From assembly GCA_964388185.1 (NCBI GenBank), contig CAYLYJ010000001.1:25873-89872 (forward strand): 64,000 nt of DNA, written 5' to 3'. Within the stretch, counting starts at the first letter, position 1. Every line of letters begins with the position of its first letter. The notes below the pieces were generated by a model. That model was given only the letters and a program-made list of their open reading frames with translations, was not told where the DNA came from and did no database searches. Position numbers and translations under genes: made by a program. Positions 44,612 through 61,659 of the stretch are shown piece by piece. This stretch comes from an uncultured Coriobacteriaceae bacterium (lineage in GTDB: Bacteria; Actinomycetota; Coriobacteriia; Coriobacteriales; QAMH01).

Positions 44612-44618
44612 GGAAGAT

Positions 44619-44718: not shown

Positions 44719-44743
44719 GTGACAGGGACCTGACCCCTGACAC
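44719..44743 (-). repeat. REP variant
   Basis: GTGACAGGGACCTGACCCCTGACAC; part of a ~53-bp direct repeat (44692-44744 matches 44823-44875). Confidence 0.8.
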
Positions 44744-44794
44744 ATGAGCGCGACGCAAATCAATATCGCACTAATACTATATAGGGGTTCCGAT

Positions 44795-44819
44795 GTGACA
44801 GGGGCCTGACCCCTGACAC
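44795..44819 (-). repeat. REP variant
   Basis: GTGACAGGGGCCTGACCCCTGACAC; shares the right-arm T>A change with its two neighbours. Confidence 0.8.
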
Positions 44820-44849
44820 ATCGGAAGCGAATGCGATGCAATCAAAAAT

Positions 44850-44874
44850 GTGACAGGGACCTGACCCCTGACAC
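44850..44874 (-). repeat. REP variant
   Basis: GTGACAGGGACCTGACCCCTGACAC; second copy of the 53-bp direct repeat. Confidence 0.8.
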
Positions 44875-45547
44875 ATTTCGTCGCTTGACAAACGAGAAAC
44901 TAGCAAATGGTCTAAAAGGGAGTGACCCTTTTGAAGCATTTTGCAGCAACCGTATAGCCAGGTGTATAGGGAGATGTATATGCGATGTATAGAAAGATAT
45001 ACGGAGTTGTAGCAATATAATAGCGCCTGGTCAGAGCAGATTTAATCAGAATTGAAGATAAAGATGAAAAGGGGCCAATTTTGGGCCCCAAAAACGGCCA
45101 TCTTTGTAGCTGATGCAGTATAAAGATGGGGATATTTTGGGACTCAAAATGGGTCGGTTTTGACGTCAAAAGTGGCATCGGAAATGTGGCGAATTGTGGA
45201 GGAATTGTGAAGAGAATCGTGAAAATTGCCACTCACACTCCGAAAATTTGGCCGCCCGCTGACAAAAATCGGCTTTCTTTCGGAACTCTCCGAAGGAGTG
45301 TGGGATGCGAACGCGATCTGAAGGGGTTCCGCGCCTCTTTTCAGATCCCTTCCGCGCTCAAAATCTCACATTAAAGAGAAAAGAACAAAAAAGCGCGGAA
45401 CTCAAGGTCAACACAGGAAATACGCCCAAAACGCGAAAGCGCGGAATAGAAATCTCAGGGCTTCAGGGAGGGGGCTCCGCGTTGGTTTGCGCGGAGGACT
45501 CCGCGCCTCGAACCGGTAAAAAGCGCGGAACCCCAGGTCAGAGCGAT

Positions 45548-45572
45548 GTGACAGGGGCCTGACCCCTGTCAC
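45548..45572 (-). repeat. REP at the centre of a 59-nt extended palindrome
   Basis: CCCCAGGTCAGAGCGAT-REP-ATCGCTCTGACCTGCGG (45531-45589); the arms match at 26 of 27 positions. Confidence 0.9.
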
Positions 45573-45672
45573 ATCGCTCTGACCTGCGGAAATGTGAATG
45601 GAATTTTGTGTCAAGGATTTTGAGCGAAAAAAAGCGCGGAACCCTCGGTCAGCGGCAAGAGGCGCAGAGAAC

Positions 45673-45697
45673 GTGACAGGGGTCAGGCCCCTGTCAC
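45673..45697 (+). repeat. REP-like 25-nt palindromic hairpin element
   Basis: GTGACAGGGG-TCAGG-CCCCTGTCAC. Confidence 0.9.
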
Positions 45698-45725
45698 ATA
45701 GCATCTACCGGGAGAAACGAGAAAC

Positions 45726-45750
45726 GTGACAGGGGCCTGACCCCTGTCAC
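45726..45750 (-). repeat. REP-like 25-nt palindromic hairpin element
   Basis: GTGACAGGGG-CCTGA-CCCCTGTCAC. Confidence 0.9.
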
Positions 45751-46071
45751 GGGGAAGCGCGGAAGGAAAATTGAGGCAAAAGCCCAGGTCAGAGGCCATA
45801 TGAAGATTATCGGATTAGTTGATAAAGCGCTGACCTGCGGGTTTAGGAAGCGCGGAAGCCCGCGTTTTTGAGCGCGGAAATGGCCAAATTGTGCCTCTGA
45901 GCTGGACATCCGCGGAAGCGCGGAGTACTATTCCGTCTGCTTCGCCAAGGAGTGGGCTGTCTCGCTCCTGGCGATTGTCAAGAAGGAAGTCTCGATTCGG
46001 GGGAAGGATCTCGAGTCGGGGCGTTCGCAAGAAATGGGAACGAATTGTACGACCGCAAGGACATAGAGCAG

Positions 46072-49000: not shown

Positions 49001-52000
49001 CCGTCATCGGCTCCGTGGGCCGCATTGACGCGATGGGTGTGGGCACGACCTCGAACTACGGCACGAACATCCTCAAGCTCTACTACACCCGCAACCAGCA
49101 CACCGTGACGCTCGACTGGGCAAGCGCGCCTGCTGGCGTTGCGGCTCCGACTTTCACCATCGGCGGCACGTCGATGAACTCCGGTGCTCAGGTGGGCTAC
49201 GGCCAGACGGCCGTGACCGTTCCCGAGCCTGCGGCCGTTCCCGGTTACGTCTTCGTGGGCTGGACCCGCGCGACGGGCTCTGCCGCCGTGACGCTTTCCC
49301 CGATCGGCTCGACCAAGGGCGTCACCTTCACGATGCCTGACGGCAACGTCGTGCTGACCGGCACCTGGCGCGCCATGAAGTACCGCGTCGAGTTCGTCAA
49401 CGACGACCGCACCGACCAGCACAGCTGGGGTTCCCTGAGCACCGGTAATGGCGCATGGAGCGTTTCCGGTTCGGGCATCAACGCCAAGTACACGATCGAC
49501 GTCGACCGCGGCACGCAGATCAAGCCGTCTGGCATGACCGCCATCAGCGCTCCGGGCGCGACGCCGTCCAACAGCAATAACTATTACTTCACCGGTTGGG
49601 AGTACTACAACGCTTCCGGCGCCAAGCAGTTCTGGGGTGCTGGTTCGACCAACAACCTCGTGATCGATCCCTCCAACTTCAGGGTCACGACTACGGGCCT
49701 GCCGAGCGGCATCGATGGCATCATCACCATCACCGCGCGCTGGGGCCTCGTGCGCGTCGTGAGCTGGACCACTTCGACGCCGGGCACCTTCGCCGGCGTC
49801 AACAAGACGCAGATCAAGGACGACGACGCCGGCAACACGCCGACGATGACCGAGGCCCAGGCGACTTTCGACCAGCTCAACGGCCAGAAGGACACCACGA
49901 GCACCAACCCGCGCAACACGGGCAAGCCCATGGGCAAGGTCGGCTACAAGTTCACCGGCTGGCATTGGGAGATGACCGGCGCCGACACCGGTACGCAGTA
50001 CTACACCACGATCGCCTCCGAGAACGGCCTTTCCATCGGTGGCCATCGTTACACGTACATGAGCGAGGCCGACCTGGCCAACATGCCCGTGACCTGCTCG
50101 ATCACCTTCCTGGCCCAGTGGGCCCCGACCAAGCAGGTCGTCACCATCACCAATACGAGTCCGTCCGGCACCGGCACGTGGGCCGCAGGCTTCGATCCGA
50201 CCGTCCCCGACGACAAGCAGAAGACCGGCTCCACCTTCACCCTGCCGACTGCCAGCCAGATCACCAAGCCCGGCTGCACCTTCCAGTGGATGGACAACAT
50301 GGGCAAGACCTACGCCCCGGGTGCGACCTACACCGTGGGCGAGGGCAAGCTGAGCCCCAGCACCGACCCGACGGTCGAGTCGAACTACGTCATCAATATC
50401 TGGCCCGTGTGGGTCGAGGGCAAGGCGACCATCAACTACAAGCTCGGCAACGGCGTTGCCACCGGTGCCGGCGTCCTCACCAAGGCGAGCGAGACCGTGG
50501 ACCTCTCTGGCGGCAACCCCGCTGGCTCGGAGGCCAAGGCCAACCCCCACTACACCTTCGTGGGCTGGTTCACCGACGCCGCCTGCACGCAGAAGATCAC
50601 CGATATGAACTGGGTCCATGACGGCTCCGCGGGCACAGGTACGCACCTCGTCCCCGGCAAGAACGCCTCGACCGGCCTGTTCGATACCGCGACCTACTAC
50701 GCGAAGTTTATCGCGACCACGTACACGATCACCTTCGTCTCCGACGACGACGACCACATCGGCAGCGAGCGCGGCACGGTTGCCACGGTGACCGGCAAGC
50801 AGAACCCCGCGCAGCTGACCTACAGCTCGCCTCTGTCCGGTAACGTGACCGTCACCGCCAAGCCCGGCTTCCGCCACACCGGTTGGAAGTACAGCGAGGA
50901 CGGCGGCACCACGTGGAAGACGATGGACACGGCCTTCAAGAACAGCGAGCACAACAACGCCGTGTGGGGCTCGATCATGCTGTACGCGACGTACAACATG
51001 CGCGATGACCTGAGCATCGCCTTCCGCGACGACACGTACACCTCTGGCCCGATCCACAACAAGAGCTACACCGGCATGTCGTGGGACGACAACGTGAGCG
51101 TAAGGCTCCCGAGCGGCTACGACGTGCGCCCCGGTTACAACTTCCTCGGTTGGTACTTCAACACCAATCCGAATGACGTCATGGACAAGGACATCAAGTT
51201 CTCGGCCGCGGCCGCCAAGTACGCCGCTCCGGATGGCGCGGGCGTCAATGGCCTCACGCTGTACGCCAAGTGGCAGGCCAAGGACGGCTACCAGGTCATC
51301 TACAACACGAACGGCGGTGGCACCGCTCCCGCTTCCAAGAACAACGTCAAGTGGGACCAGACCGGTCTGCTGGCTGCTGACCAGACCCGCGCCGGTTACA
51401 CCTTCCTCGGCTGGTTCGTGGATGACCCGAGCAACCATGACAACGACCGCAAGATCACCGCTGACAACGCCTACAGCGTGCTGGCAGCCGGCGATGACAC
51501 GAAGATGTCCGTCACGCTGACCGCGCACTGGAAGCAGAAGACCTACCAGATCCAGTACCTCGACAACGTGGGCACCACGCAGCTCGGCCATGCCGGCTCG
51601 TCTTCTGACACGCTTGCCAAGGTGCTGTACTGGGACAGCGTCGTTCCGACCTTCACCCCGACCAAGACCGGCTCCACCTTCATCGGCTGGACCTATGGCA
51701 CGGGCACGACCGTTGGCACCACGACCAAGATCTCCGATCTGGCCGGTGGCGTCGATGTCGAGGACGGCCACACGTTCATCGTGCGCGCCTCCTGGCAGGG
51801 CAACCCCACCTACACCATTAACTACTACCTCCTCAAGCGCAACGCTGACGGCACCTACACCGCCAATGGCGCTCCCGAGTCCCTGACCTTCAGCGGCTAC
51901 CTGACGCCGGGCGTCGACGCTGATGCCACGAACCTCCAGGGTGCTGGCGAGAGCGCGGCCGTGAACTACTGGACGAAGTTCGCCAAGGCCGGCTACGCTG

Positions 52001-55000
52001 CCGACACCACCAATATCCATGGCAAGAACGTGATCCGCTTCAACGGCGGCGCGATCATCGCCAACTCCGGTACGAACCACGTGTTCAAGCTGTACTTCTA
52101 CGAGAAGGAGTACACGCTGAAGTACGTCGACGACAACGGCAGCGCGTTCACCCCGCCGGTCGCCGACAAGGTCGTGGGCTGGGAGAGCTCGAGCCTCGCC
52201 CCGACGACTGCCCCGACGCGTCCGGGCTACGGCTCCGTGTCGTGGACCTACAATGGTACGCCCGTCGCGGGCAAGACCATCGCTGACCTCCTCGGCGCTT
52301 CCGGTGAGAACACCACGACCCTCACGCTCAAGGCCGTGTGGGGCGAGAACAAGACCACTATTACCTACACCGTCTCCGGTCCGAGCGGCAGCGCGAGCGT
52401 GACGCCCGGTAGCGAGCAGATCAACTCCGCCACGGGCACGGCCACCGGCTCCAAGGTGACGCTGTCCGATCCCACCAGCTACAAGCTGCTCGGTTGGTTC
52501 TACAACGACGGCGCCGGCGAGGTTGCCGTGGACTCCAACTGGGTTGTCAACAACGCCGACGGTTCCATCTCGATCGTTCCGCAGAAGGAGGGCGGCGTCT
52601 ACGTGGCGCGCACCTACTATGCGAAGGTCGCCGAGCTCTCCGCGCTCAACTACACCGTCGAGCACTACTTCATGAAGAACGACGGCACGTATGGCACCAC
52701 CGCTGACGAGACCGCCAGCGGCTCCGACAAGGAGAACGTGACCATCAACGCCGCTGACAAGAAGGTCACGCGCCAGGGCTTCACCTACGACGCCTCTGCC
52801 GCTGGCAGCATCACGTCGATCACGCTGCTCACCACCGATCCGGATGGCAGCCGCGTGCTCAAGCTCTACTACGTGCGCGATTCCTACACCATCGAGGTCA
52901 TCCCGGCCGAGGCTGGCAAGGACTCCCCGTCGCCGGCGCCGAGCATCGATGACTCGCACCTCACCGACGGCAAGAAGTACATGGGTTCCTCGCAGAACCT
53001 GCCGATCGTGGGCAACCATGACGGCTGGACGCTGACCTGGAAGCTCGACGATGGCACCACGCTTTCCGCCACCGACACCTCCTTCATCGTCCCGTTCGAG
53101 GCCGACGGCAAGGTGACGCTCACCGCCGTGTGGACCCGCAACAAGATGAACGTCTCGTTCACCGACGCCGACAAGCCGTCGACCCCGGCTGGCTTCTCCG
53201 TGACCGCCAGCCCGGTCAAGGTCGACTTCGGCAAGAACCTCTCCAGCGTGTCCGGCTGGAACATGAGCAAGGTCACCGTGACGCAGCCGAGCGAGTGGGC
53301 GCTCGTGGGCTGGGAGGTCTGGAACGCCGACCACACCGTGAAGCTGGGCGACGTCGCCGACCCGATGATCTGGACGATCGACCAGGACACGATCTTCAGC
53401 GCCAAGTGGGCCCAGACGCTCGTCGTCACCTACTACCCGGGTGACCATGCGGCTGCCGGCCAGAACTCCAAGACCTACCAGGACTACAAGTCCTCCGATA
53501 ACGCGCCGATGCCGAGCTGGGCTTCCAAGACCGGCGGCAACCCGAGCGCCGACCATCCCAATGCCGCCACCGGCTACGCCTGGATCGGCTGGAAGTGGAC
53601 GCTCGACGGCGTTGACTACTACTTCTACGCCAACCCGGCCGACGCGCTGGCTGGCACGACCAGCACCGCGATGCCGACCACGGTCGACAACAACTACGCA
53701 TTCACCGCGCTGTACAAGGCGCTTGACCGCACGCTCTCGTTTGACCTGAGCGGCACCGAGACCTGGACCGACGGCGACTCCGCCACGTCCAAGACGATCG
53801 CCACCAAGACCGGCGAGACCATCCCGTTTGCCTCGATGCCGACCCCGCAGAAGGCTGGCTGGAAGTTCGTGGGCTGGAAGGTTTCCGGCACCGATGATTC
53901 CACCGCCATCAAGACTGGCATGAACTACCTCGTGCCCGCCATCGCCGATGACACGATCCACTTCGTGGCCGTGTTCAAGGTCGATGCCTGGTACGTCACC
54001 TACATCGTAGAGGGCGACGGCGGCGTGCGCGACAACGACGAGGACACCGTCTCGCCGACGCTCGAGACCGCCCCGAAAGGCTGCACCGCCAAGCCGAACC
54101 CCGGCTTCAAGTTCGTGGGCTGGTTCTGGCGTGACACCGACGGCACCGAGCATACCGTTGACGAGTCCTGGCTGACCCGCAACGCCGACGGCTCCGTCAA
54201 GATCACCCCGCATGCCGACAGCGGCACGGCCGGTAACTACGTCTGGGCCGAGCGCACCTACTTCGCGCGCTTCACCGCTGGCGACACGAGCTTCAAGATC
54301 TGGTACATGCAGCAGAACGTGGATGGCACCTGGGGCGCCACCGCCGCTGACATCGAGACCGTGACGACGACCACCGCAGGCGCGAAGGTCACGACCGGTC
54401 AGACCTACCAGATCAGCGACTTCACGCTCAAGAGCTTCCTCGGCTTCGTGCTGAGCAGCGACAACAACGGCCAGCCGACCGACGTGACCGTCCTCGGCAA
54501 TGGCTCCAGCGTGCTCAAGGTCTTCCTCGAGCGCGTGAAGAACGACGTTACCTTCGAGTTTGCCCCGGGCGATGCCCCGAGCGGCGTGACCGTGCCTCCC
54601 GCGATGACCGACCAGGTCTTCGGCAGCACCGTCACCCTGCCGACCGTGAGCGCGCCCGGTTACAAGTTTGGCTGGACCGCCAAGTACACGGACGAGAACG
54701 GCGCGGAGCAGACGCTCGCCATCAGCGGCGGCAGCTTCACCATGCCGGCCTTCCCCGTGACCGTGACCGGCACGTGGACCAACCCCGTGTACCATATCGT
54801 CTTCACGACGGACCAGGCCGGCGCCGGCAACATGCCGAACGCCACCAATACTACGGACTTCGACCGTTACAACTCCGACCCGAGCTCGACTGCCAACACG
54901 ATCTCCTGGAACGGCAGCGGCTGGGTGCCCATGGGCATGGACGGCAACATCGTCATCCCGACCTACGATGGCATGACCTTCAAGGGTTGGTACTACAAGG

Positions 55001-58000
55001 ACGCTGCTGGCAAGTACCAGCCGCTGACCGACGACGTGACGTTCGCGATGCTCGCTGGCAACAACCCGAACAACGAGACCGCCTACATCTACGGTAGGTG
55101 GGACAAGGCCCTGTACCTCGTCATCTTCGAGTACGACGACGGCCGCGAGATCGCGACTGACGACGAGGTCGAGTGGGATCAGACCGTGAGCGTGGCCACT
55201 GGCGGCCGCCCGAGCATGCCTGGCTTCAGCTTCGCTGGCTGGTACTACATGAAGGACGGCGCGCAGGTTGCCTACACCGGTGGCAAGACCTTCGAGCAGC
55301 TGGCGGCCGAGCTTGGCCTGACCGCTGCCGACAAGGCCGACACGGGCCGTGGCATCCACCTCATCGCCAAGTTCACCCAGAACCAGACCTTCACTGTCAA
55401 GTTCTACAAGGGCGCCTACGACGAGAGCGGCAACCTGGTTGCCGGCCCGCTGTACGACGAGTCCGACGTGTACGAGATCGCCGACGGCGCGACCATCCAG
55501 CTCGTGCTGCGCGCTGATGGCGACTTCGACCTGGTGCTGACCGGCAACGAGGCCGACGGCTCCAAGCTCCCGAAGCTCATCGAGATGCCGTTCATCTCCG
55601 GTTACGTCTACGACGCCAACCTGAGCCGTGCGCTCGACATCCTCAGCACGACCGACGGACGCTTTGCCGGCGAGCTCGCCATCTACCTGGCGCCGCGCCG
55701 CGACTACAGCATCACGTACGTCATCCAGATGCCTGACGGCTCGACGAAGAACGTGACGACGCGCGCCAACCTGGCGTGGGATTCGACGGGCCACGCTGGC
55801 GTGACCGCCACCGCTCCCGCCGGTTACAAGATCGACGGCGGCTGGTTCTGGAAGAGCCAGTCCGGCAAGACCGGCACGGTGGCCGCGGCCGATGCGTACT
55901 CCGAGCTCGTCAACAAGATCTTTGGCAAGAAGGACACCTCCAAGAAGAACATCACGCTGTACATCAAGGCAGTGGCCCAGACCTACAGCGTCATCTTCGC
56001 CGACGATAACAACGGCGCGGACAACCCGTACACGCAGATCAGCCGCAAGGACGGCATCACGTGGGGCGGTAAGGTCGCGATGACTGCGGCCAGCAAGCCC
56101 GGCTACGAGTTTGCCGGCTGGCAGATCCGCCCGGCTGGCGGCTCGGCCGTCACCGTGAGCGATGGCAACGTCTTCAGCAGCCTGGCCACGCGCCTGGGCC
56201 TGACGGATGTCACCGCGCTCGACACGCCGGTCGTGATCTACGCCGTGTGGAACAAGTACGTGGGCGTCACCATCGAGTTCTACAAGGACAGCGTGAGCGA
56301 CGCCAACAAGCTGCCGCACGTGCAGAAGTACACGGGCGACCAGACCAAGAAGAAGGCCGGCGAGACCTACTCCGTCGCCAAGAGCCTGATCGACAGCCAG
56401 CGTCCGGCCGGTTACACCTCGCCTGCTGGTGCCTCGATGAAGCTTCTGGTCGACGAGGCCAACAACATCATCAAGGTGATTTACACCCTCAACAAGAACT
56501 TCAAGATCGTGCTCGACGCGAACTACACGGGCAAGCCGGCTGACCAGACCGTGAGCGGCCTGGCCTGGACCGAGAAGCCCGACGCGAAGATCACGTGGGC
56601 TCCGAGCCGCATGGGCTACGAGCTGAAGGCCAAGCCGCAGCGCTGGAACACCCGCGCCGACGGCAAGGGCACGAGCATCTCGGCCGACATGACCTATGCG
56701 CAGATCGCGCAGCTGCTGAAGCTGGACGAGAGCGCGGCGCTCAAGAGCGGCCTGAAGCTGTACGCCCAGTGGGCAGTCGCCAACAACTTCGAGGTCCTCT
56801 ACGACCTCAACAACGACCGCGAGACCAACAAGAAGGTCACGACCGCCGTGCCCGACGACCGCACCCCGATCGATGTCGAGGAGCTCAACGAGCACAAGGT
56901 CGCCTGGAACAAGGGTGGCTTCGACAAGTCCAACGACGGCGAGCTCGATGCCGCACCCAATGGCTACGAGTTCGACGGCTGGAACACGAAGGCCGACGGC
57001 ACGGGCCTCAAGATCGACAGCTCCATGACCTACGAGCAGATCTCGAAGTACATCAACAAGAACGCCGCGCAGAAGAGCATCACGCTGTACGCGCAGTGGA
57101 AGGAACTCGTCATCGAGATCACGTACGTGGTCGATAACGAGGCCGCAGGCACCATCGACCGCAAGGTCGACAAGGTGAGCGCCGTCACGAAGCAGGCCGT
57201 GAAGGACGGCTCCTCGGCTGGCACCCAGCTGCACTCCGTGGCGACCGCCAAGCCTGGCTGGCACTTCGTCGAGTGGGTCCTCGTGACCGACGACATGACG
57301 GCCAAGAGCGGCGAGACCTTCGCCAACGTGATGAAGAAGCTGCGCGACGACGAGAGCGAGCTGCAGATTCTGTCGCACGCCAACGACGGACGCCTCTACG
57401 GCGCCACCTACATGGCGAAGTTCGCACGCAACGACAACGCGACGATCGAGTACGATCGCAACGACGACCTTGAGAACAACATCCTGGGCACCGGCGAGAT
57501 CAAGGATCAGACCACCGCCCATGGCAGCCATGTGAACCTGTCCAACGGTTCCGAGTTCAAGCGTGGCCACTACACCCTCATGGGCTGGAACACCGAGCCC
57601 GACGGCTCCGGCACGCACTACGCGCTGGGCCAGACCGGCATCGTGATGCCGGTCGAGGGCATGAAGCTGTACGCCGAGTGGGGCATCAACAACTACGGCG
57701 TGACCGTGAACGGCCCGAAGGACGGCGGCTCCGTGCAGCCCGGCTCCACCACGATCACGTGGGGCGAGAAGGTCCCGAAGGAGTTCGTGGACAGCCTGAA
57801 TCCGTGGGCTGACCTCGGCTGGCACTTCACCGGTTGGGAGTACAGGATGGTCGACGCCGACACGGGCGAGGTCATCACCGGCTTCACGACCGACCCGACC
57901 ACGCTCACCGTCAAGGGCGAGCTGGAGCTCACCCCGGTGTTCGAGGGAGCTGACCTCGTGGACGGCCCGCCGCGCACCGGCGACGACTCCTACGAGTTCG

Positions 58001-61000
58001 AGCTCACGCTGGCCGCCCTGTGGACGGCACTGGCCGCGGCCCTGGCAGCGCTGCTGCTGATGGTGGTGGCCCGCCGCCGCCGTCGCGCCGAGGAGGCGTG
58101 CGAGGCGCTCGAGGCCGAGGCTGCCGGCGTGTACGGCGTGCACGCAGCCGCATGGGGCAACGGGCGCGCGACGCGCACGCTCGCGGCCAGCGGTTACGGT
58201 GCGCATTCGGTGCGCACGGACGGCTCGCGGGTGACGCGCGTGGAGCTGGCGGCTGCGGCGGCCAGCGCGAGCGTCGAGGGCTGCGAGACGCGCGAGGAAT
58301 ATGTGGAGCGCGCGATTGCGTGCGGTATGGGTGCTCACGCCGTGGCGTCGAGCGCCCTTTGCGATGACAACGAGCTGCGCTCGAGCTGCTGCGGCGCCCA
58401 TTCGGTGGCCGCTGCGGGTCGCGGCGCGCATGCGATACCGGTTCTGGCCGACGAGGCCGCCGCTGGCGCCGTGGAGCGCCTGGGCGCGGCCGAAGGAGCC
58501 CACACGGTCTCCAAGGCCGGAGAGAGCGCTCTGGATCGCCTGGTGGCGGCTTACGGCGAGCACAGCGTGCGCCGCGCCGACGATGGCGTCTGGGAGAGCT
58601 TCGACAACGTGGTGGCGCCGGTGCGACCGGCGGCTCCGACGGCCCGCGAGCGCGTGGCCGCTGCGATGCGCGGGCTCAAGCCGCGCGTGAGCGGCGCCGG
58701 TGCGCACGAGGTGGCGACGGCTGGCGAGCAGCTGGCGAGCGTGACAGGGGTCAGGCCCCTGTCACATGTGCAGCTGGCCTGCATTTATGCATGGATGTGC
58801 AATAGTAAACGTGAAATTTTCGGCACCGATTTCGTGGCATACGAAGCTCCGGTGCCTGCGAGCAAGGCGCAGCGCAAGGCTGCAAAACAGGCTGCGAAAA
58901 ACGCTGGCCTCCGCGGTGGACTATTTGGCCGCGGCAACGTGACAGGGGTCAGACCCCTGTCACATAATGGCGAAACCGCAGGTCAGAGCGTATTCGCCGT
59001 GAGAAATTTGCCCTTCGAAGGGGATAACTCTGCCCATTTACGGGCGTACTGTGCCCTCAGCCAGGCGGATGCGGAGCTCGCACCGCCTGTCGCGTATGAA
59101 ATGAACGTTTCCGCCGTTCGACCGCGGTCAAGGCGCATGAAATTAGCCTTGGGCATGCCATCGGTGATCTTGGCGTTGTGCCTGGCCACGTTTGGTGTGG
59201 GTGCGCATCTCTCACCGAGCGTCGCAATGGCCGACGAAACATCTAGTACTAGTGCAGCCGGCGTCGTGGCCGCCGTGATCGGGGACGATTCTACGGCCTC
59301 TCAGGCGTCTTCGGCATCTGGGACGGGTCTGGACAAGGCCCCGGCCTCTAACGGGGCTCAGACGGCAAATACGGGCGTTGCAGGAGATTTGGGCAACGCG
59401 GCTAATAACGCTTCGACCAGCGGAAACGGTACAGATACCGTGACTAAGGGCGAAAATGCCACTCTTAATACCAATGGTTCCGATACCAATACTAAGGACG
59501 TTCAGGACGCCGAGAAGGGCGTCGAGGGCGATTCTGAGGCCTCTGAGGGCCTCGAGAAGGCCCCCGAAGCCACTCCTGGCGAGGATAAGGACGCCGTGAA
59601 GGACGCTGCTGACGCCGATACGAGCGCTGCTGGCGATTCCTCCACCAATAAGGACGCGACCGCGGGGTCCGAAAATACCCCGAATTCCTCCGAAAATAAT
59701 TCCGATCGCCACCAGAATGATGGCGGAAACGACTCCGATTCCAACGATTTCGACGAGCCGGTGCTCCCCGCCGAGGGCCAGCCGACGGCTCCTTCCCCGG
59801 CAGATCAGCCGACCGACGATGATACCTCGACACCCCCATCTAGCGGGGATGATAGCAGCAATGCTAGCTCATTGACCACGCAAGATAGCCTAGCACCGCC
59901 GGGTGCTAGCACCCAATCCGATCCACCTCCATTGGACTCCGGAACGTACTTCATCCGATGGAACGAGCAATCGGACTTTTGGATCGGAGAAAAGGATAAT
60001 CAAGTCGCCGTTTACCACAACCCTGGTACCGGCTTGCCTATTTTCTGGAATATAGACTTCGTGTCTAATTCTTCTGCTTATGTGATCAAGATTGGCGATA
60101 TGTACCTTGGCCGGGCGGTTTCCGACGATGAGTACTCCCTCGTCCTTCTTGACTCCGTGAGCGATGGCCAAAGTGAAATTCTTTGGGATATTTTCGCGAC
60201 CGAGAATCTCGAGCCCGGAACCTACTTCATTTGCGACCCGACGCGTTCCATTTACGTACGCGCGAGGCAGACCGACGAGACCGAGCTGACGCTTCTGGTC
60301 CGTGGCGGCATGGCTGAGGTTCCCGTCGCGAACAGTTACATCTGGATGATTGGTCAGCCTCCCGCGCAGGATTGGTCGATTGAGTACTTCCCCGCGGGCG
60401 CGACTGAGGGTACGACTCCCGAGACGAGTGTTTCCAGCGTCTCCGGTGCTACCATCCCCGAGTGCGGCTACAAGCGCTTCGGCTATACCTTCATTGGTTG
60501 GAACACTGCCGAGGACGGTACGGGCACGGCTTACATGCCCGGCGACTTCGTTCCCGGCGACGGCGTGCTTTCCGAGGACTTCGTGCTGAGGCTCTTCGCT
60601 CAGTGGAAAGAGGCCTTCGTCAACATCACCGTTAGTATTAGTGGGGGCGGCACCGTCAAGGACGACGCCACTAATAAGAAGAGTGACAGCATCACGCAGA
60701 CCGTGAGCTCCGCGACGGGTCTGATCAAGGACACCGCCGACAAGGGCTTGAGTGGCGTGACTGCCGTTCCGGGCCGCGGTTTCCACTTCGGCTCGTGGCT
60801 CATCGATGGCGGCGTTGGCTCGATCGCGGATTCGCTGCGCTTCAACAAGACGCTGACCGCCGATCAGATCATGCAGCTTTCGAAGTTCACCGATCCCGAG
60901 ACGGGCTGGACGCTGTTCCATGACACGACGCTCGTTGCGGACTTCATCGCTAATACTTATATGATCAAGTACGACGCCAACGGCGGCCTGGGTACCATCG

Positions 61001-61659
61001 CCGCGCGCAGCGTCGATTACGGTTCCAGCGCCGTGCTCACCAAGGCCGACGCGCTCAAGCGCGACCGCTACAAGTTCAAGGGCTGGAACACCAAGGCCGA
61101 CGGCAGCGGCATTGCCGTGAGCGATGCCGAGACGCTCGAGCGTCTGCTGGCTGCCGGTGTCCTGGCCGATGCCGATGGTGCGATCACGACGCTGTATGCT
61201 CAGTGGGAGCTCATCCCCGAGGACACGCCCGCTCCTGCGCCGAACACCACTCCGAATGCCACGCCGAGCAACGGCGATGACGGCAACAACTATGGTGGCT
61301 ACCGCGGTTACCGCGGCTGGGGTTATGCGTACGCCGACGAGGCCGAGCTGCCCGCCGCCGAAGAGACCGACGAGATGCTCGACGCCACTCCTGCGAGTGA
61401 CGAGATGATCACGACCAAGGGCGGTAACCCGGTGCTCGACTTCTTCGGCACGGATGCCGGCAAGGTCGTCGCCGTCGTTGGCGGCGCCGCGATTACGGTC
61501 GCGGTTATTGCCGGCATCGCAGCACTCGTCGCCGCACATGGCGCCGCCGGTGCTGCTGGCACAGCCGGCGCGGCTGGAGCCGCGGCTGCAGAGGGCGGCT
61601 TCTTCTCCCGCCTGCGTAGGAGGATCGCGAACTTCTTTGGACGCGGCAAGCAGGGTTAA
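46072..61659 (+). CDS. Giant cell-surface repeat protein ORF, uninterrupted for 5,195 codons; probably two genes fused by lack of a stop
   Basis: ATG at 46072 gives MGLANAGTTCAVPAAKARNPLVAFIAVVFVAAALLFAMPSLAYA/SSE, a signal peptide; the track start at 45952 (GTG) adds 40 non-signal residues. An acidic S/T/D-rich region is followed by many Flg_new-type repeats and MucBP-like modules. A sorting-signal-like PPRTG + TM + RRRRR lies at 57967-58086. There is no in-frame stop until TAA at 61657-61659 (per the ORF track). The frame crosses a GAHxV-repeat tail, two REPs (58741, 58939) and a second signal peptide at 59101/59137. Confidence 0.8.
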   Translation: MGLANAGTTCAVPAAKARNPLVAFIAVVFVAAALLFAMPSLAYASSEAEASPQASEAQEILLSQKESSTSANKTPDESPTPPGYTAQDAFNIDLGAQATEVDLVSGDGASSYTPGDDKASINDKDSDDDSDSDSNQGTHDKADSNTTADEDSDATANPKDETDSTVDSNGASSSITDEKAAGSDANQSAGPTGDSKADDVIATDRDGQSADQTAGAAADNAGEVQKEQTKPQVQQPAKSQVGTASTVTPAATSGTVHVVFQTYAAGSYNSLAAVLAGTHTTIGNATDKVYKTTNAFAGYANGGDSSVTSFGIGSPNVLPTYYRYGYTLKSWTRVMWNERRSRLVVNTYNVGATTNTTIFPAGTEVVLFANWERVQYSLSYYQTGSATIVWDNNSSSSYWDTVLPSETQVPVTVNPDPNVFSTSGENGKWHLKPLQTAQFNNYDFGLKVADHAADGSTSSLVYYNFTPGKPYANGVLTVGQIISAYYPQGDTYDAALGSITKWEVFPCWNPTPSTEYKITFAIGSGDSSKGTVTGKEIKVANDGTGKVTSALWTGANVSASDTNKTDGYQLKANAWTGKIGTNSYTFNSLAELYNFAVSGDMVLSPVWEKIAGPFTVTFDANGGSVTPGSASATEFTGSITIPAAPTMEGKTFSGWYTAASGGTKLYSGGGTTTYADLLKAIYGSSNNGTNQYNENNKSVTIYAHWGDVEYKYHFESNGGSGIYSTVGSESTTTWNGTITVPAAPTPDSGYSFVGWFTEKDGAGTQVATGSAYKTLAGNNAATKSLTFYAFFREDVVKMEFKVAAGSTGNVTLGHGSTTGQNSITLYVGAATGKLYTYDGANYTLATGNVGAVTPTFGSNYRYQSIGWLDGSGAELNSSSAQAQYVTINTTTGVLTPKAYNGTYRAGTYSIKAAPKPYYYKVEYYLQGLDGSWASTPTEFTSGTANYGTAVQVRNFSADTTATQVDPKTYAGFTYTSTVIGSVGRIDAMGVGTTSNYGTNILKLYYTRNQHTVTLDWASAPAGVAAPTFTIGGTSMNSGAQVGYGQTAVTVPEPAAVPGYVFVGWTRATGSAAVTLSPIGSTKGVTFTMPDGNVVLTGTWRAMKYRVEFVNDDRTDQHSWGSLSTGNGAWSVSGSGINAKYTIDVDRGTQIKPSGMTAISAPGATPSNSNNYYFTGWEYYNASGAKQFWGAGSTNNLVIDPSNFRVTTTGLPSGIDGIITITARWGLVRVVSWTTSTPGTFAGVNKTQIKDDDAGNTPTMTEAQATFDQLNGQKDTTSTNPRNTGKPMGKVGYKFTGWHWEMTGADTGTQYYTTIASENGLSIGGHRYTYMSEADLANMPVTCSITFLAQWAPTKQVVTITNTSPSGTGTWAAGFDPTVPDDKQKTGSTFTLPTASQITKPGCTFQWMDNMGKTYAPGATYTVGEGKLSPSTDPTVESNYVINIWPVWVEGKATINYKLGNGVATGAGVLTKASETVDLSGGNPAGSEAKANPHYTFVGWFTDAACTQKITDMNWVHDGSAGTGTHLVPGKNASTGLFDTATYYAKFIATTYTITFVSDDDDHIGSERGTVATVTGKQNPAQLTYSSPLSGNVTVTAKPGFRHTGWKYSEDGGTTWKTMDTAFKNSEHNNAVWGSIMLYATYNMRDDLSIAFRDDTYTSGPIHNKSYTGMSWDDNVSVRLPSGYDVRPGYNFLGWYFNTNPNDVMDKDIKFSAAAAKYAAPDGAGVNGLTLYAKWQAKDGYQVIYNTNGGGTAPASKNNVKWDQTGLLAADQTRAGYTFLGWFVDDPSNHDNDRKITADNAYSVLAAGDDTKMSVTLTAHWKQKTYQIQYLDNVGTTQLGHAGSSSDTLAKVLYWDSVVPTFTPTKTGSTFIGWTYGTGTTVGTTTKISDLAGGVDVEDGHTFIVRASWQGNPTYTINYYLLKRNADGTYTANGAPESLTFSGYLTPGVDADATNLQGAGESAAVNYWTKFAKAGYAADTTNIHGKNVIRFNGGAIIANSGTNHVFKLYFYEKEYTLKYVDDNGSAFTPPVADKVVGWESSSLAPTTAPTRPGYGSVSWTYNGTPVAGKTIADLLGASGENTTTLTLKAVWGENKTTITYTVSGPSGSASVTPGSEQINSATGTATGSKVTLSDPTSYKLLGWFYNDGAGEVAVDSNWVVNNADGSISIVPQKEGGVYVARTYYAKVAELSALNYTVEHYFMKNDGTYGTTADETASGSDKENVTINAADKKVTRQGFTYDASAAGSITSITLLTTDPDGSRVLKLYYVRDSYTIEVIPAEAGKDSPSPAPSIDDSHLTDGKKYMGSSQNLPIVGNHDGWTLTWKLDDGTTLSATDTSFIVPFEADGKVTLTAVWTRNKMNVSFTDADKPSTPAGFSVTASPVKVDFGKNLSSVSGWNMSKVTVTQPSEWALVGWEVWNADHTVKLGDVADPMIWTIDQDTIFSAKWAQTLVVTYYPGDHAAAGQNSKTYQDYKSSDNAPMPSWASKTGGNPSADHPNAATGYAWIGWKWTLDGVDYYFYANPADALAGTTSTAMPTTVDNNYAFTALYKALDRTLSFDLSGTETWTDGDSATSKTIATKTGETIPFASMPTPQKAGWKFVGWKVSGTDDSTAIKTGMNYLVPAIADDTIHFVAVFKVDAWYVTYIVEGDGGVRDNDEDTVSPTLETAPKGCTAKPNPGFKFVGWFWRDTDGTEHTVDESWLTRNADGSVKITPHADSGTAGNYVWAERTYFARFTAGDTSFKIWYMQQNVDGTWGATAADIETVTTTTAGAKVTTGQTYQISDFTLKSFLGFVLSSDNNGQPTDVTVLGNGSSVLKVFLERVKNDVTFEFAPGDAPSGVTVPPAMTDQVFGSTVTLPTVSAPGYKFGWTAKYTDENGAEQTLAISGGSFTMPAFPVTVTGTWTNPVYHIVFTTDQAGAGNMPNATNTTDFDRYNSDPSSTANTISWNGSGWVPMGMDGNIVIPTYDGMTFKGWYYKDAAGKYQPLTDDVTFAMLAGNNPNNETAYIYGRWDKALYLVIFEYDDGREIATDDEVEWDQTVSVATGGRPSMPGFSFAGWYYMKDGAQVAYTGGKTFEQLAAELGLTAADKADTGRGIHLIAKFTQNQTFTVKFYKGAYDESGNLVAGPLYDESDVYEIADGATIQLVLRADGDFDLVLTGNEADGSKLPKLIEMPFISGYVYDANLSRALDILSTTDGRFAGELAIYLAPRRDYSITYVIQMPDGSTKNVTTRANLAWDSTGHAGVTATAPAGYKIDGGWFWKSQSGKTGTVAAADAYSELVNKIFGKKDTSKKNITLYIKAVAQTYSVIFADDNNGADNPYTQISRKDGITWGGKVAMTAASKPGYEFAGWQIRPAGGSAVTVSDGNVFSSLATRLGLTDVTALDTPVVIYAVWNKYVGVTIEFYKDSVSDANKLPHVQKYTGDQTKKKAGETYSVAKSLIDSQRPAGYTSPAGASMKLLVDEANNIIKVIYTLNKNFKIVLDANYTGKPADQTVSGLAWTEKPDAKITWAPSRMGYELKAKPQRWNTRADGKGTSISADMTYAQIAQLLKLDESAALKSGLKLYAQWAVANNFEVLYDLNNDRETNKKVTTAVPDDRTPIDVEELNEHKVAWNKGGFDKSNDGELDAAPNGYEFDGWNTKADGTGLKIDSSMTYEQISKYINKNAAQKSITLYAQWKELVIEITYVVDNEAAGTIDRKVDKVSAVTKQAVKDGSSAGTQLHSVATAKPGWHFVEWVLVTDDMTAKSGETFANVMKKLRDDESELQILSHANDGRLYGATYMAKFARNDNATIEYDRNDDLENNILGTGEIKDQTTAHGSHVNLSNGSEFKRGHYTLMGWNTEPDGSGTHYALGQTGIVMPVEGMKLYAEWGINNYGVTVNGPKDGGSVQPGSTTITWGEKVPKEFVDSLNPWADLGWHFTGWEYRMVDADTGEVITGFTTDPTTLTVKGELELTPVFEGADLVDGPPRTGDDSYEFELTLAALWTALAAALAALLLMVVARRRRRAEEACEALEAEAAGVYGVHAAAWGNGRATRTLAASGYGAHSVRTDGSRVTRVELAAAAASASVEGCETREEYVERAIACGMGAHAVASSALCDDNELRSSCCGAHSVAAAGRGAHAIPVLADEAAAGAVERLGAAEGAHTVSKAGESALDRLVAAYGEHSVRRADDGVWESFDNVVAPVRPAAPTARERVAAAMRGLKPRVSGAGAHEVATAGEQLASVTGVRPLSHVQLACIYAWMCNSKREIFGTDFVAYEAPVPASKAQRKAAKQAAKNAGLRGGLFGRGNVTGVRPLSHNGETAGQSVFAVRNLPFEGDNSAHLRAYCALSQADAELAPPVAYEMNVSAVRPRSRRMKLALGMPSVILALCLATFGVGAHLSPSVAMADETSSTSAAGVVAAVIGDDSTASQASSASGTGLDKAPASNGAQTANTGVAGDLGNAANNASTSGNGTDTVTKGENATLNTNGSDTNTKDVQDAEKGVEGDSEASEGLEKAPEATPGEDKDAVKDAADADTSAAGDSSTNKDATAGSENTPNSSENNSDRHQNDGGNDSDSNDFDEPVLPAEGQPTAPSPADQPTDDDTSTPPSSGDDSSNASSLTTQDSLAPPGASTQSDPPPLDSGTYFIRWNEQSDFWIGEKDNQVAVYHNPGTGLPIFWNIDFVSNSSAYVIKIGDMYLGRAVSDDEYSLVLLDSVSDGQSEILWDIFATENLEPGTYFICDPTRSIYVRARQTDETELTLLVRGGMAEVPVANSYIWMIGQPPAQDWSIEYFPAGATEGTTPETSVSSVSGATIPECGYKRFGYTFIGWNTAEDGTGTAYMPGDFVPGDGVLSEDFVLRLFAQWKEAFVNITVSISGGGTVKDDATNKKSDSITQTVSSATGLIKDTADKGLSGVTAVPGRGFHFGSWLIDGGVGSIADSLRFNKTLTADQIMQLSKFTDPETGWTLFHDTTLVADFIANTYMIKYDANGGLGTIAARSVDYGSSAVLTKADALKRDRYKFKGWNTKADGSGIAVSDAETLERLLAAGVLADADGAITTLYAQWELIPEDTPAPAPNTTPNATPSNGDDGNNYGGYRGYRGWGYAYADEAELPAAEETDEMLDATPASDEMITTKGGNPVLDFFGTDAGKVVAVVGGAAITVAVIAGIAALVAAHGAAGAAGTAGAAGAAAAEGGFFSRLRRRIANFFGRGKQG
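57967..58086 (+). other. Cell-wall-sorting-signal-like segment (PPRTG, hydrophobic helix, RRRRR)
   Basis: Codons read directly: P-P-R-T-G (57967-57981), DDSYEFE, LTLAALWTALAAALAALLLMVVA (58003-58071), RRRRR (58072-58086). The layout matches LPXTG-type signals, but the L is replaced by P and the ORF does not end after the basic residues. Confidence 0.5.
58087..58740 (+). other. Ala/Gly/Arg-rich tail with eight G-[AVE]-H-x-[VAI] motifs
   Basis: The motifs are at 58135 (GVHAA), 58198 (GAHSV), 58330 (GAHAV), 58393 (GAHSV), 58423 (GAHAI), 58495 (GAHTV), 58555 (GEHSV) and 58699 (GAHEV), all in the gene frame. The tail ends at the REP at 58741. Confidence 0.6.
58741..58765 (+). repeat. REP lying in frame inside the giant ORF
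   Basis: GTGACAGGGG-TCAGG-CCCCTGTCAC, translated as VTGVRPLSH. Confidence 0.9.
58939..58963 (+). repeat. REP variant lying in frame inside the giant ORF
   Basis: GTGACAGGGG-TCAGA-CCCCTGTCAC, translated as VTGVRPLSH. It is followed at 58976-58988 by CCGCAGGTCAGAG, a motif also seen at 32195 and, inverted, at 45577. Confidence 0.9.
59101..61659 (+). CDS. Alternative reading: separate surface protein (852 aa from ATG 59101, or 840 aa from ATG 59137) with signal peptide, beta-trefoil-like domain, Flg_new repeats and a C-terminal TM anchor
   Basis: MNVSAVRPRSRRMKLALGMPSVILALCLATFGVGAHLSPSVAMA/DE is a canonical signal peptide in the same frame as the upstream ORF. An S/T/N/D-rich region follows, then a triple [FLI]-W segment (59938-60360) and two Flg_new-type repeats (GYTFIGWNTAEDG...LFAQW; YKFKGWNTKADG...LYAQW). 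The C-terminus has the hydrophobic VVAVVGGAAITVAVIAGIAALVAA and a basic tail RLRRRIANFFGRGKQG. Confidence 0.55.
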   Translation: MNVSAVRPRSRRMKLALGMPSVILALCLATFGVGAHLSPSVAMADETSSTSAAGVVAAVIGDDSTASQASSASGTGLDKAPASNGAQTANTGVAGDLGNAANNASTSGNGTDTVTKGENATLNTNGSDTNTKDVQDAEKGVEGDSEASEGLEKAPEATPGEDKDAVKDAADADTSAAGDSSTNKDATAGSENTPNSSENNSDRHQNDGGNDSDSNDFDEPVLPAEGQPTAPSPADQPTDDDTSTPPSSGDDSSNASSLTTQDSLAPPGASTQSDPPPLDSGTYFIRWNEQSDFWIGEKDNQVAVYHNPGTGLPIFWNIDFVSNSSAYVIKIGDMYLGRAVSDDEYSLVLLDSVSDGQSEILWDIFATENLEPGTYFICDPTRSIYVRARQTDETELTLLVRGGMAEVPVANSYIWMIGQPPAQDWSIEYFPAGATEGTTPETSVSSVSGATIPECGYKRFGYTFIGWNTAEDGTGTAYMPGDFVPGDGVLSEDFVLRLFAQWKEAFVNITVSISGGGTVKDDATNKKSDSITQTVSSATGLIKDTADKGLSGVTAVPGRGFHFGSWLIDGGVGSIADSLRFNKTLTADQIMQLSKFTDPETGWTLFHDTTLVADFIANTYMIKYDANGGLGTIAARSVDYGSSAVLTKADALKRDRYKFKGWNTKADGSGIAVSDAETLERLLAAGVLADADGAITTLYAQWELIPEDTPAPAPNTTPNATPSNGDDGNNYGGYRGYRGWGYAYADEAELPAAEETDEMLDATPASDEMITTKGGNPVLDFFGTDAGKVVAVVGGAAITVAVIAGIAALVAAHGAAGAAGTAGAAGAAAAEGGFFSRLRRRIANFFGRGKQG

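What the first reader, a model, noticed from the sequence alone, without database searches (positions are those of the whole stretch)
58087..58740. Predicted cytoplasmic tail with an eight-fold G-A-H-x-V short motif
Immediately after the membrane helix and the Arg5 stop-transfer, the sequence is Ala/Gly/Arg-rich. It carries GVHAA, GAHSV, GAHAV, GAHSV, GAHAI, GAHTV, GEHSV and GAHEV at irregular spacing, often preceded by Y/G/C (coordinates are in the feature list). I do not recognise this motif. A stop-free run of this length in this frame argues for coding rather than chance, though that is rough reasoning from base composition only. A histidine-centred repeat on the inner face of the membrane could bind metal or a partner protein, or could mark an unusual processing or sorting tail.
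Basis: seen in the sequence. Interest (0 to 1): 0.6.

Follow-up and report, generated by a model that had tools for sequence, protein, structure and literature searches.

The report
His-motif cytoplasmic loop, not a tail
The eight G-A-H-x-V motifs are real and conserved, but they lie in a cytoplasmic loop joining two surface-protein modules in one 5,200-residue gene of a gut Coriobacteriia bacterium, an unusual layout whose function is unknown.

Summary
All eight histidines of the 218-residue stretch (58087-58740) sit in G-x-H-x-x motifs; none of 100,000 shuffles gave more than three.

The stretch is protein-coding in the stated frame and under purifying selection. dN/dS is 0.29-0.46 between lineages and pN/pS is 0.16 within the species, tighter than for the extracellular body. 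All eight motifs and their spacing are conserved in four lineages.

The "tail" reading is only partly right. The frame never stops. It runs from a PPRTG + helix + RRRRR sorting-type signal through the His-motif region and a variable linker. It then enters a signal-peptide-like helix (59137-59232), an ~800-residue second ectodomain and a third helix, and stops at 61659.

This continuous frame is found in nine strain assemblies and four lineages. The linker itself evolves as coding sequence (pN/pS 0.33). Two lineage-B loci have no start codon near the second module.

The region has no Pfam, NCBIfam or PDB match, only orthologues among 1.84 billion representatives, and no confident AlphaFold model.

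Best reading: a conserved, probably disordered cytoplasmic loop carrying a multivalent His motif array. Processing by sortase and signal peptidase, and binding of a partner or metal, are inferred, not shown.

The parts
46072..46203 (+). Probable true start (ATG) and N-terminal signal peptide of the giant ORF (MGLANAG...PSLAYA|SSE)
   Evidence: Translation. First of only four hydrophobic segments in the protein. The exact protein from ATG 46072 is on record in the public collection.
46204..57960 (+). Ectodomain 1 (~3,900 aa) with Listeria-Bacteroides (Flg_new) repeats
   Evidence: Pfam PF09479, E = 2e-39. pN/pS 0.20-0.37 within the species.
57961..57984 (+). DGPPRTGD, an invariant LPXTG-like (xPxTG) sorting-type motif
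   Evidence: Invariant in five loci, omega 0.03-0.07. A neighbouring gene in the related locus L014 ends VPKTGD + helix + RVARRVRQ + stop.
58003..58071 (+). Transmembrane helix TM1 (stop-transfer)
   Evidence: Kyte-Doolittle peak 2.42. The only confidently modelled part in AlphaFold, pLDDT 82-92.
58072..58086 (+). RRRRR positive patch on the cytoplasmic side of TM1
   Evidence: Translation. RRR, RRRR or RRRRR in all lineages.
58087..58716 (+). Conserved His-motif region: eight G-A-H-[SAT]-[VIA] motifs. The motifs start at 58135, 58198, 58330, 58393, 58423, 58495, 58555 and 58699. Three Cys are invariant: the C of CETRE and the CC before motif 4.
   Evidence: Motif statistics. Positional conservation and spacing of 21 / 38-61 / 21 / 10 / 24 / 20 / 48 residues in four lineages. 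Omega 0.29-0.46 and pN/pS 0.16. No family or PDB match. Only orthologues in 1.84 billion representatives. AlphaFold pLDDT below 50.
58717..59136 (+). Variable linker, translated in the same frame
   Evidence: Stops per frame 0/4/6 over 58741-59136; 0/5/6 for the slightly longer linker taken from the end of motif 8. Linker lengths are 429, 429, 393, 507 and 558 nt in five loci, all multiples of 3 with no in-frame stop. Within-species pN/pS is 0.33 in this frame and at least 1.39 in the other frames, apart from the third-position-sharing antisense frame (0.29), which contains stops.
58741..58765 (+). REP-like hairpin copy 1, inside the ORF and in frame (VTGVRPLSH)
   Evidence: The 45-nt unit VTGVRPLSHVQLADG is present one, two or three times among strains.
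58768..58857 (+). Conserved island within the linker (AI[YF]xW[LM]Cxx[KR]RE..GFVAYEAPxP)
   Evidence: Alignment of five loci. Omega 0.09-0.6. Ser is coded AGT in the window and TCC in lineage B.
58939..58963 (+). REP-like hairpin copy 2, inside the ORF and in frame
   Evidence: This region carries in-frame indels among strains.
59137..59232 (+). TM2, an internal signal-peptide-like segment (RSRR-MKLALGMPSVILALCLATFGVGAHLSPSVAMA|DE)
   Evidence: Hydropathy peak. Conserved n-h-c layout with AxA in all lineages. In the two lineage-B loci L013 and L014 there is no in-frame start codon within 45 codons upstream.
59233..61464 (+). Ectodomain 2 (~745 aa) with Flg_new repeats
   Evidence: Pfam PF09479, E = 5.7e-13. 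pN/pS 0.24-0.31.
61465..61659 (+). TM3, Gly/Ala-rich basic C-terminal tail and the only stop codon of the ORF

Best explanation
Shown by the evidence:
- The 654-nt stretch is translated in the stated frame and kept under purifying selection.
- It is the conserved core of a ~350-residue cytoplasmic loop inside one ~5,200-residue ORF of a gut Coriobacteriia bacterium.
- The ORF has four hydrophobic segments. The order is N-terminal signal peptide, ectodomain 1, PPRTG motif, TM1, RRRRR, His-motif region, variable linker, a signal-peptide-like TM2 with an AxA site, ectodomain 2, TM3 and a short basic end.
- So the gene looks like two surface-protein genes joined in frame through a cytoplasmic connector.
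- The connector carries eight positionally fixed G-A-H-[SAT]-[VIA] motifs and three invariant cysteines, set in Ala-rich sequence for which AlphaFold gives no confident fold.

Inferred, not shown:
1. TM1 stops transfer and TM2 restarts export, so both ectodomains end up outside the cell while the loop stays in the cytoplasm.
2. A sortase-type enzyme may cut at PPRT|G and signal peptidase may cut after SVAMA|. That would give a wall-linked giant protein, a membrane-anchored second protein and a left-over two-helix hairpin carrying the His-motif loop, in 1:1:1 ratio.
3. The motif array acts as a multivalent docking surface for a cytoplasmic partner or for metal ions through His and Cys.
For: Coding and selection:
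- Between lineages, omega is 0.386 in the ORF frame. It is at least 1.3 in the other frames, except the third-position-sharing antisense frame (0.52), which has stops.
- Omega is 0.29-0.46 in six lineage pairs.
- Within the species, pN/pS is 0.16 for the His-motif region, against 0.20-0.37 for ectodomain 1.
- Motif codons vary synonymously: four Gly codons, CAC 14 / CAT 18, and Ser TCG/TCC/AGC.
- All eight motifs and their spacing are conserved in four lineages.

Single ORF:
- The frame is uninterrupted in the window, L003, L011, L013 and L014.
- It is also uninterrupted in nine strain-level proteins of 5,195-5,344 aa from independent assemblies.
- Linker lengths are all multiples of 3 with no in-frame stops, against up to 6 stops in the other frames.
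- Linker pN/pS is 0.33 in the ORF frame.
- The conserved island uses different Ser codons in different lineages.
- No start codon lies within 45 codons of TM2 in L013 or L014, and there are no good Shine-Dalgarno matches elsewhere.

Topology:
- There are exactly four hydrophobic segments.
- Arg/Lys flank the loop side of both TM1 and TM2.

Sorting-type motif:
- DGPPRTGD is invariant.
- A neighbouring gene in the clade ends with VPKTGD + helix + basic tail + stop.

Orphan status:
- No Pfam, NCBIfam or PDB match.
- Only five relatives, all orthologous, in 1.84 billion representatives.

Disorder:
- Mean pLDDT is 38 in two AlphaFold runs, with only TM1 confident.
Against: - There is no direct evidence of translation, cleavage or binding: no proteomics, RNA data or ribosome profiling.
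- The AlphaFold alignments had only three sequences, so a real fold could have been missed.
- The linker holds REP-like hairpins and lineage-specific palindromes that normally mark intergenic DNA. The window also has an ATG at 59137, so separate expression of module 2 is not excluded.
- Some low-quality assemblies (L001, L002, L004) show frameshifts or a deletion in this region. These could be errors or real decay in some strains.
- The 90% cluster can only contain full-length ORFs, so nine of nine is partly a sampling effect.
- PPRTG is not a canonical LPXTG, and no sortase gene was seen in the DNA available.
- All known copies come from one narrow clade, so conservation is measured over modest divergence (dS about 0.4-0.8).
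Confidence: 0.6

Rival explanations
1. It is a true C-terminal tail. The transcript or translation of gene 1 ends at the REP hairpin at 58741, for example as a non-stop mRNA rescued by tmRNA. Module 2 is then a separate gene with its own promoter and start, and the open frame across the linker has no function.
For: - The hairpins are otherwise intergenic in this window.
- A promoter-like match overlaps hairpin 2 at 58939-58968.
- The window, L003 and L011 have an ATG upstream of TM2.
- Protein conservation drops sharply just after motif 8.
Against: - The linker evolves as coding sequence in the ORF frame, with pN/pS 0.33.
- The island is conserved at protein level with different Ser codons.
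- The linker has no in-frame stops and its lengths are multiples of 3 in five loci, despite many indels.
- L013 and L014 have no start codon near TM2.
- The hairpin has no T-run, and no terminator-like site was found on the + strand.
Confidence: 0.1
2. The His-motif region is a folded metal-binding domain for Zn, Ni or Cu. The eight His and three invariant Cys would act as ligands, rather than the region being a disordered docking array.
For: - Every His is invariant in position.
- The C of CETRE and the CC directly before motif 4 are invariant.
- Selection is tighter here than on the ectodomains.
- Short helices of regular length are predicted between motifs.
Against: - No known metal-site pattern is present (no HxH, CxxC or HExxH).
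- The histidines are single and 10-48 residues apart.
- There is no match to any solved structure or family.
- AlphaFold confidence is very low, though the alignment was shallow.
Confidence: 0.2
3. It is young filler sequence. A lost stop codon fused two genes, and the former GC-rich 3' or intergenic DNA is now translated as a passive connector. On this view the repeated motif is a leftover of internal duplication with no function of its own.
For: - No homologue exists outside a narrow clade.
- GC is 75% and the composition is Ala/Gly/Arg-rich.
- REP units expand in frame right next to it.
- No fold is predicted.
Against: - Omega of 0.16-0.46, lower than for the ectodomains, is not expected for a passive spacer.
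- All eight motifs are retained at dS of about 0.4-0.8, while the adjacent linker is saturated and full of indels.
Confidence: 0.1
4. It is an artefact: a chance open frame in high-GC DNA, a gene on the opposite strand, or an assembly error that removed a stop codon.
For: - High-GC DNA gives long shadow ORFs; the minus strand has a 3,941-codon one over the same region.
- The third-position-sharing antisense frame also shows low omega.
Against: - That antisense frame contains stops.
- The other frames give omega of about 1.3 or more.
- The same continuous ORF occurs in nine strain assemblies and four lineages from different projects.
Confidence: 0.02

Closest known systems
Sortase substrates with a C-terminal cell-wall sorting signal (LPXTG motif, hydrophobic helix, basic tail)
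   Same: The module has an xPxTG pentapeptide (PPRTG), about 9 spacer residues, a 23-residue helix and an Arg run. The same clade has an ordinary terminal version (VPKTGD...RVARRVRQ + stop).
   Different: The definition (from established knowledge) puts the signal at the extreme C-terminus, with only a few basic residues after the helix. Here it is internal, followed by about 350 cytoplasmic residues and another exported module. Position 1 is P rather than L. Cleavage is untested.
Viral polytopic polyproteins (e.g. flavivirus C-prM-E) that alternate stop-transfer and internal signal sequences cut by host signal peptidase
   Same: One ORF has alternating stop-transfer (TM1) and re-initiating signal (TM2 with AxA) segments. 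This would place two ectodomains outside and a connector inside. The background literature appeared (e.g. PMC3437442).
   Different: This is a bacterial chromosomal gene. The first cut would be by a sortase-type enzyme, and no processing has been shown.
Giant Listeria-Bacteroides-repeat (Flg_new / InlB B-repeat) surface proteins of gut bacteria
   Same: Both ectodomains carry PF09479 repeats. The window holds other giant genes of this type (ORFs of 9,006 and 1,613 codons).
   Different: The relatives found have no His-motif loop and no internal helix / loop / signal arrangement. The other giant ORFs in the window end at stop codons.
Sensing of the sortase-cleaved C-terminal peptide in Streptococcus gordonii (recalled from memory, not checked here)
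   Same: In that system, a membrane-retained remnant left after sortase cleavage can carry information to the cytoplasm. The TM1-loop-TM2 remnant proposed here would be such a remnant.
   Different: Known C-peptides are about 30 residues with no cytoplasmic domain. Nothing here links the loop to a sensor.
His-rich cytoplasmic loops of metal transporters (CDF/ZIP) and the N-terminal X-X-His (ATCUN) copper/nickel site (from general knowledge)
   Same: Both involve cytoplasmic histidines in flexible sequence. G-A-H would form an X-X-His site if a protease cut just before each Gly.
   Different: The histidines here are single and widely spaced rather than clustered. There is no evidence of cleavage before Gly, and there is no sequence similarity.

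Membership tests
Sortase cell-wall sorting signal (LPXTG-type) | LPXTG-like pentapeptide | tested here: inconclusive
   PPRTG fits xPxTG and is invariant in five loci. A neighbouring gene in the clade has VPKTG in a normal terminal signal. The NCBIfam NPXTG model scores below its cut-off (E = 0.04, 14.2 against 23.5 bits).
Sortase cell-wall sorting signal (LPXTG-type) | Hydrophobic helix followed by basic residues shortly after the motif | tested here: met
   A helix at 58003-58071 and RRRRR at 58072-58086.
Sortase cell-wall sorting signal (LPXTG-type) | Signal lies at the extreme C-terminus of the protein | tested here: not met
   1,190 further codons follow in frame before the stop at 61659. 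The same holds in all lineages.
Sortase cell-wall sorting signal (LPXTG-type) | Cleavage between T and G and linkage to peptidoglycan by a sortase | not testable with these tools
   Needs biochemistry. No sortase gene was seen in the window or the fetched flanks.
Sec-type cleavable signal peptide (for TM2) | Basic n-region, hydrophobic h-region, c-region with small residues at -3 and -1 | tested here: met
   RSRRMK / LALGMPSVILALCLATFGVGA / HLSPSVAMA|DE. The layout is conserved, with AMA or AYA at the site, in all lineages. This was judged by inspection; no predictor was available.
Sec-type cleavable signal peptide (for TM2) | Located at the N-terminus of the translated product | tested here: not met
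   It lies about 4,350 residues into the ORF. L013 and L014 have no start codon within 45 codons upstream.
Any curated protein family or solved structure (for the His-motif region) | Significant profile or sequence match | tested here: not met
   Pfam: none. NCBIfam: only a sub-threshold SDR hit, E = 0.007, 15.9 against 360 bits. PDB profile search: none at E up to 10. HMMER against 1.84 billion representatives: only orthologues.
Tandem-repeat domain protein | Head-to-tail repeat units alignable over their whole length | tested here: not met
   Only the 5-residue core recurs. Spacing is irregular (10-48 residues) and DNA repeat families are short and weak. Tandem Repeats Finder itself was not run.
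Listeria-Bacteroides repeat (Flg_new) surface protein | PF09479 repeats above the gathering score | tested here: met
   133.9 bits for ectodomain 1 and 49.2 bits for ectodomain 2, against a cut-off of 27. This applies to the ectodomains, not to the His-motif region.

The most novel reading that the evidence does not exclude
A bacterial polytopic polyprotein. One ORF would be threaded through the membrane three times and cut by a sortase-type enzyme at an internal sorting signal and by signal peptidase at an internal signal peptide. This would yield a wall-anchored giant adhesin and a second membrane-anchored surface protein. The third product would be a two-helix remnant whose clade-specific His-motif loop reports or organises surface display from the cytoplasmic side, by binding a partner or a metal.
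Probability: 0.3. Interest if true: 0.75.

Novelty: new variant of a known kind. Interest (0 to 1): 0.5.

Why it matters
Sorting signals of Gram-positive surface proteins are defined as C-terminal, and whatever follows the helix is treated as a few basic residues. Here, an internal sorting-type signal is followed by a selected 350-residue cytoplasmic segment and a second export signal.

If the ORF is made as one chain, bacteria can build multi-part surface structures from one polytopic precursor, in the way enveloped viruses do. Gene callers and annotators would then be wrong to split such genes or flag them as pseudogenes.

The His-motif array is also a clean example of a clade-restricted, possibly recently born protein segment that is already under stronger constraint than its neighbouring ectodomains. 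That makes it a tractable case for studying how new cytoplasmic motifs arise next to REP-rich DNA.

The practical limit is that the host is a poorly studied gut Coriobacteriia lineage and nothing here is experimental.

Tried and rejected
- The word-indexed homologue search with the tail found only two fragments. The exhaustive HMMER search added three, all orthologous, so there is no paralogous or distant family.
- The GTDB species-genome scan with tail peptides found nothing.
- Searches with ectodomain 2 and with the end of ectodomain 1 returned only the same clade or generic Flg_new proteins at 30% identity or less. The unfused ancestral state could not be found.
- Two AlphaFold runs gave mean pLDDT of about 38, so no fold search was run because its matches would be meaningless.
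- The PDB sequence search gave nothing, and the Rfam scan gave only two sub-threshold matches (E 0.2 and 0.58).
- Four literature searches found no report of an internal sorting signal followed by a cytoplasmic domain and a signal peptide in bacteria. They also found nothing on Coriobacteriia Flg_new giants.
- A DNA-level or RNA-level role for the motif was rejected, because motif codons vary freely at synonymous sites.
- Coding on the minus strand was rejected.
- Descent of the motif from the REP unit was considered (the unit encodes ..LSHVQLADG, compared with GAHSVRTDG). It was not pursued, because in DNA this GC-rich the resemblance is too weak to test.
Full report
**1. The observation**

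Translating the frame of the long + strand ORF (45952..61659) gives, right after a hydrophobic helix (58003-58071) and RRRRR (58072-58086), a 218-residue Ala/Gly/Glu/Val/Arg-rich stretch. They account for all eight histidines of the stretch. In 100,000 residue shuffles the maximum was three motifs. GC rises to about 75% here, against 62% for the gene body.

**2. Is it coding?**

GC by codon position (0.79 / 0.62 / 0.84) fits a high-GC coding frame.

Public data hold few relatives, and all of them are the same locus in close lineages.
- P0001-P0005 are protein fragments of the locus, and L001-L005 are the contigs that encode them.
- L011-L016 are further metagenome loci.
- Nine strain-level full-length proteins are at least 90% identical to the window's protein.

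Against L001, Nei-Gojobori omega is 0.386 in the ORF frame. It is at least 1.3 in the other frames, apart from the antisense frame that shares third positions (0.52), and that frame has stops. Across six lineage pairs omega is 0.29-0.46.

Within the species (window, L018, L019, L020), pN/pS is 0.16. This is lower than for ectodomain 1 (0.20-0.37) and ectodomain 2 (0.24-0.31).

Motif codons vary synonymously: Gly uses four codons, His is CAC 14 / CAT 18, and Ser is TCG, TCC or AGC. The constraint is therefore on the peptide, not on DNA or RNA.

All eight motifs are fixed in position in four lineages. Their spacing is 21 / 38-61 / 21 / 10 / 24 / 20 / 48 residues. The consensus is G-A-H-[SAT]-[VIA]. 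The window's GVHAA and GEHSV are lineage-specific departures from it.

**3. It is not a tail**

The frame does not stop at 58740. It runs through two in-frame copies of a hairpin (58741, 58939) and a conserved island (58768-58857). It then passes a basic patch and a signal-peptide-like segment, RSRR-MKLALGMPSVILALCLATFGVGAHLSPSVAMA|DE (59137-59232). After that come about 745 residues with Flg_new repeats, a third helix (from 61465), a short basic end, and the stop at 61659. The whole protein has exactly four hydrophobic segments.

The same uninterrupted frame is present in L003, L011, L013 and L014. It is also present in all nine strain proteins of 5,195-5,344 residues from independent ENA, Logan and NCBI assemblies.

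Several lines of evidence show the linker is translated:
- Linker lengths are 429, 429, 393, 507 and 558 nt. All are multiples of three with no in-frame stop, while off-frame stop counts reach 5-6.
- Within the species, the linker has pN/pS 0.33 in the ORF frame and 1.4-2.1 in the non-shadow frames.
- The island is conserved as protein with different Ser codons, AGT against TCC.
- In L013 and L014 there is no ATG, GTG or TTG within 45 codons upstream of the TM2 core. The candidates in other lineages have Shine-Dalgarno matches of 3/5 or worse.

Frameshifts or a deletion in L001, L002 and L004 occur in low-quality assemblies that also break the gene body. I treat them as probable errors, though strain-level decay is not excluded. 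The 90% cluster can only hold full-length ORFs, so its unanimity is partly a sampling effect.

**4. Topology and likely processing (inference)**

The N-terminal signal peptide puts ectodomain 1 outside. TM1 with RRRRR after it, and TM2 with RSRRMK before it, place the roughly 350-residue loop in the cytoplasm by the positive-inside rule. Ectodomain 2 is then outside, and TM3 returns the basic C-terminus to the cytoplasm.

DGPPRTGD is invariant, with omega 0.03-0.07. A neighbouring gene in L014 ends VPKTGD + helix + RVARRVRQ + stop, an ordinary sorting signal. So xPxTGD is plausibly this clade's sortase motif. TM2 has a textbook n-h-c layout with AxA.

If both enzymes act, the products are a wall-linked giant protein, a membrane-anchored second protein, and a two-helix remnant carrying the His-motif loop. 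None of this is shown.

**5. What the His-motif region is**

It matches no known family or structure:
- Pfam: no match.
- NCBIfam: only a sub-threshold hit.
- PDB profile search: no match at E up to 10.
- Rfam: only two sub-threshold matches (E 0.2 and 0.58), none near any family's gathering score.

AlphaFold with three-sequence alignments gives mean pLDDT of 38 for the region alone and for TM1-loop-TM2. Only TM1 is confident. I therefore ran no fold search.

My best reading is a flexible, Ala-rich, partly helical cytoplasmic segment. It presents eight fixed His-centred short motifs plus three invariant Cys, forming a multivalent site for a partner protein or for metal. I cannot separate these two options. 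A passive-spacer reading is disfavoured, because this segment is more constrained than the ectodomains while the adjacent linker is saturated and full of indels.

**6. Comparison with known systems**

It works like a sorting-signal protein up to RRRRR, but it fails the defining feature of a C-terminal location. TM2 looks like a Sec signal peptide but is not N-terminal.

The overall logic, alternating stop-transfer and internal signal segments in one ORF, is that of viral polytopic polyproteins. Literature searches returned only viral and eukaryotic examples, with no bacterial surface-protein case.

The ectodomains are ordinary Flg_new giants.

**7. Host and context**

The 25-nt hairpin GTGACAGGGGTCAGGCCCCTGTCAC has about 30 sites in the window. 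All are between genes except the two in this linker. Its exact matches in species genomes are all in uncultured gut Coriobacteriia MAGs. An IS200-type Y1 transposase ORF (35051-35800) is flanked by hairpins, as in REP/RAYT systems.

Among strains, a 45-nt hairpin unit is present one to three times in frame just after motif 8. Other lineages carry different palindromes in the linker. So the linker behaves like REP-colonised DNA that is nevertheless translated.

**8. Verdict**

- Novelty: a new variant of a known kind, a Gram-positive giant surface protein with an internal sorting-type signal, an orphan His-motif cytoplasmic loop and an internal signal peptide.
- Interest is moderate (0.5). The layout would surprise specialists and is testable. 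However, it is confined to one narrow clade and its function is unknown.

Noticed in passing
window 32001-45750, 58741, 58939, 61766, 61808: A 25-nt perfect hairpin, GTGACAGGGGTCAGGCCCCTGTCAC, occurs at about 30 sites in 64 kb. It flanks nearly every gene between 32 and 46 kb. Shuffles give none. Its exact matches in species genomes are all in uncultured gut Coriobacteriia MAGs.
   Followed up: partly
window 35051-35800 (- strand), with hairpins at 35024 and 35822: An IS200-like Y1 transposase ORF (PF01797, E = 3.7e-15) is bracketed by two hairpin copies. This is the arrangement of a REP-associated tyrosine transposase (RAYT) with its REP elements.
   Followed up: partly
window 58741-58785; strain proteins P0021, P0027, P0028: The hairpin-containing 45-nt unit (VTGVRPLSHVQLADG) is present one, two or three times in tandem, always in frame, in different strains. 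The second hairpin region also carries in-frame indels of -6 to +8 codons.
   Followed up: partly
window about 46800-47630 (protein residues about 245-520): The ~275-residue domain after the acidic N-terminal region is hypervariable among nine strains. It has six alleles at 33-65% identity, while the next 3,000 residues are 93-99% identical. It looks like an exchangeable distal tip.
   Followed up: partly
window 15-27035 and 27045-31886: Two more giant + strand ORFs of 9,006 and 1,613 codons. The first ends without any helix or sorting signal, 9 nt before the second, which starts with its own signal peptide. The second ends with two hydrophobic segments.
   Followed up: no
window 32029-32814: A 261-codon ORF with a CdiA C-terminal toxin domain (PF18451, E = 2.7e-10) lies just downstream of the giant genes and is flanked by hairpins.
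   Followed up: no
window 36294-37601, 37822-39297, 39430-40785 (- strand) and 42703-43863 (+ strand): Four paralogous AAA_14 + DUF4143 ATPase genes lie in a row, each separated by hairpins.
   Followed up: no
window about 61855 onward (+ strand); L018 16785-17591, L019 17208-18014: The next gene downstream is called as a 902-residue EAL-domain (c-di-GMP phosphodiesterase type) protein in the strain contigs. My own translation from 61854 was one base out of frame.
   Followed up: no
L003 8924-8958, L011 2407-2484, L013 8947-8983: A palindrome built on AGACAAA...TTTGTCT recurs in the translated linker about 100-200 nt upstream of TM2 in three lineages, but not in the window. It could be an operator or another REP type.
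   Followed up: no
window 46882-58707 (- strand): A 3,941-codon open frame runs antisense to the giant gene. It is a high-GC3 shadow of the + strand frame, not a gene.
   Followed up: yes
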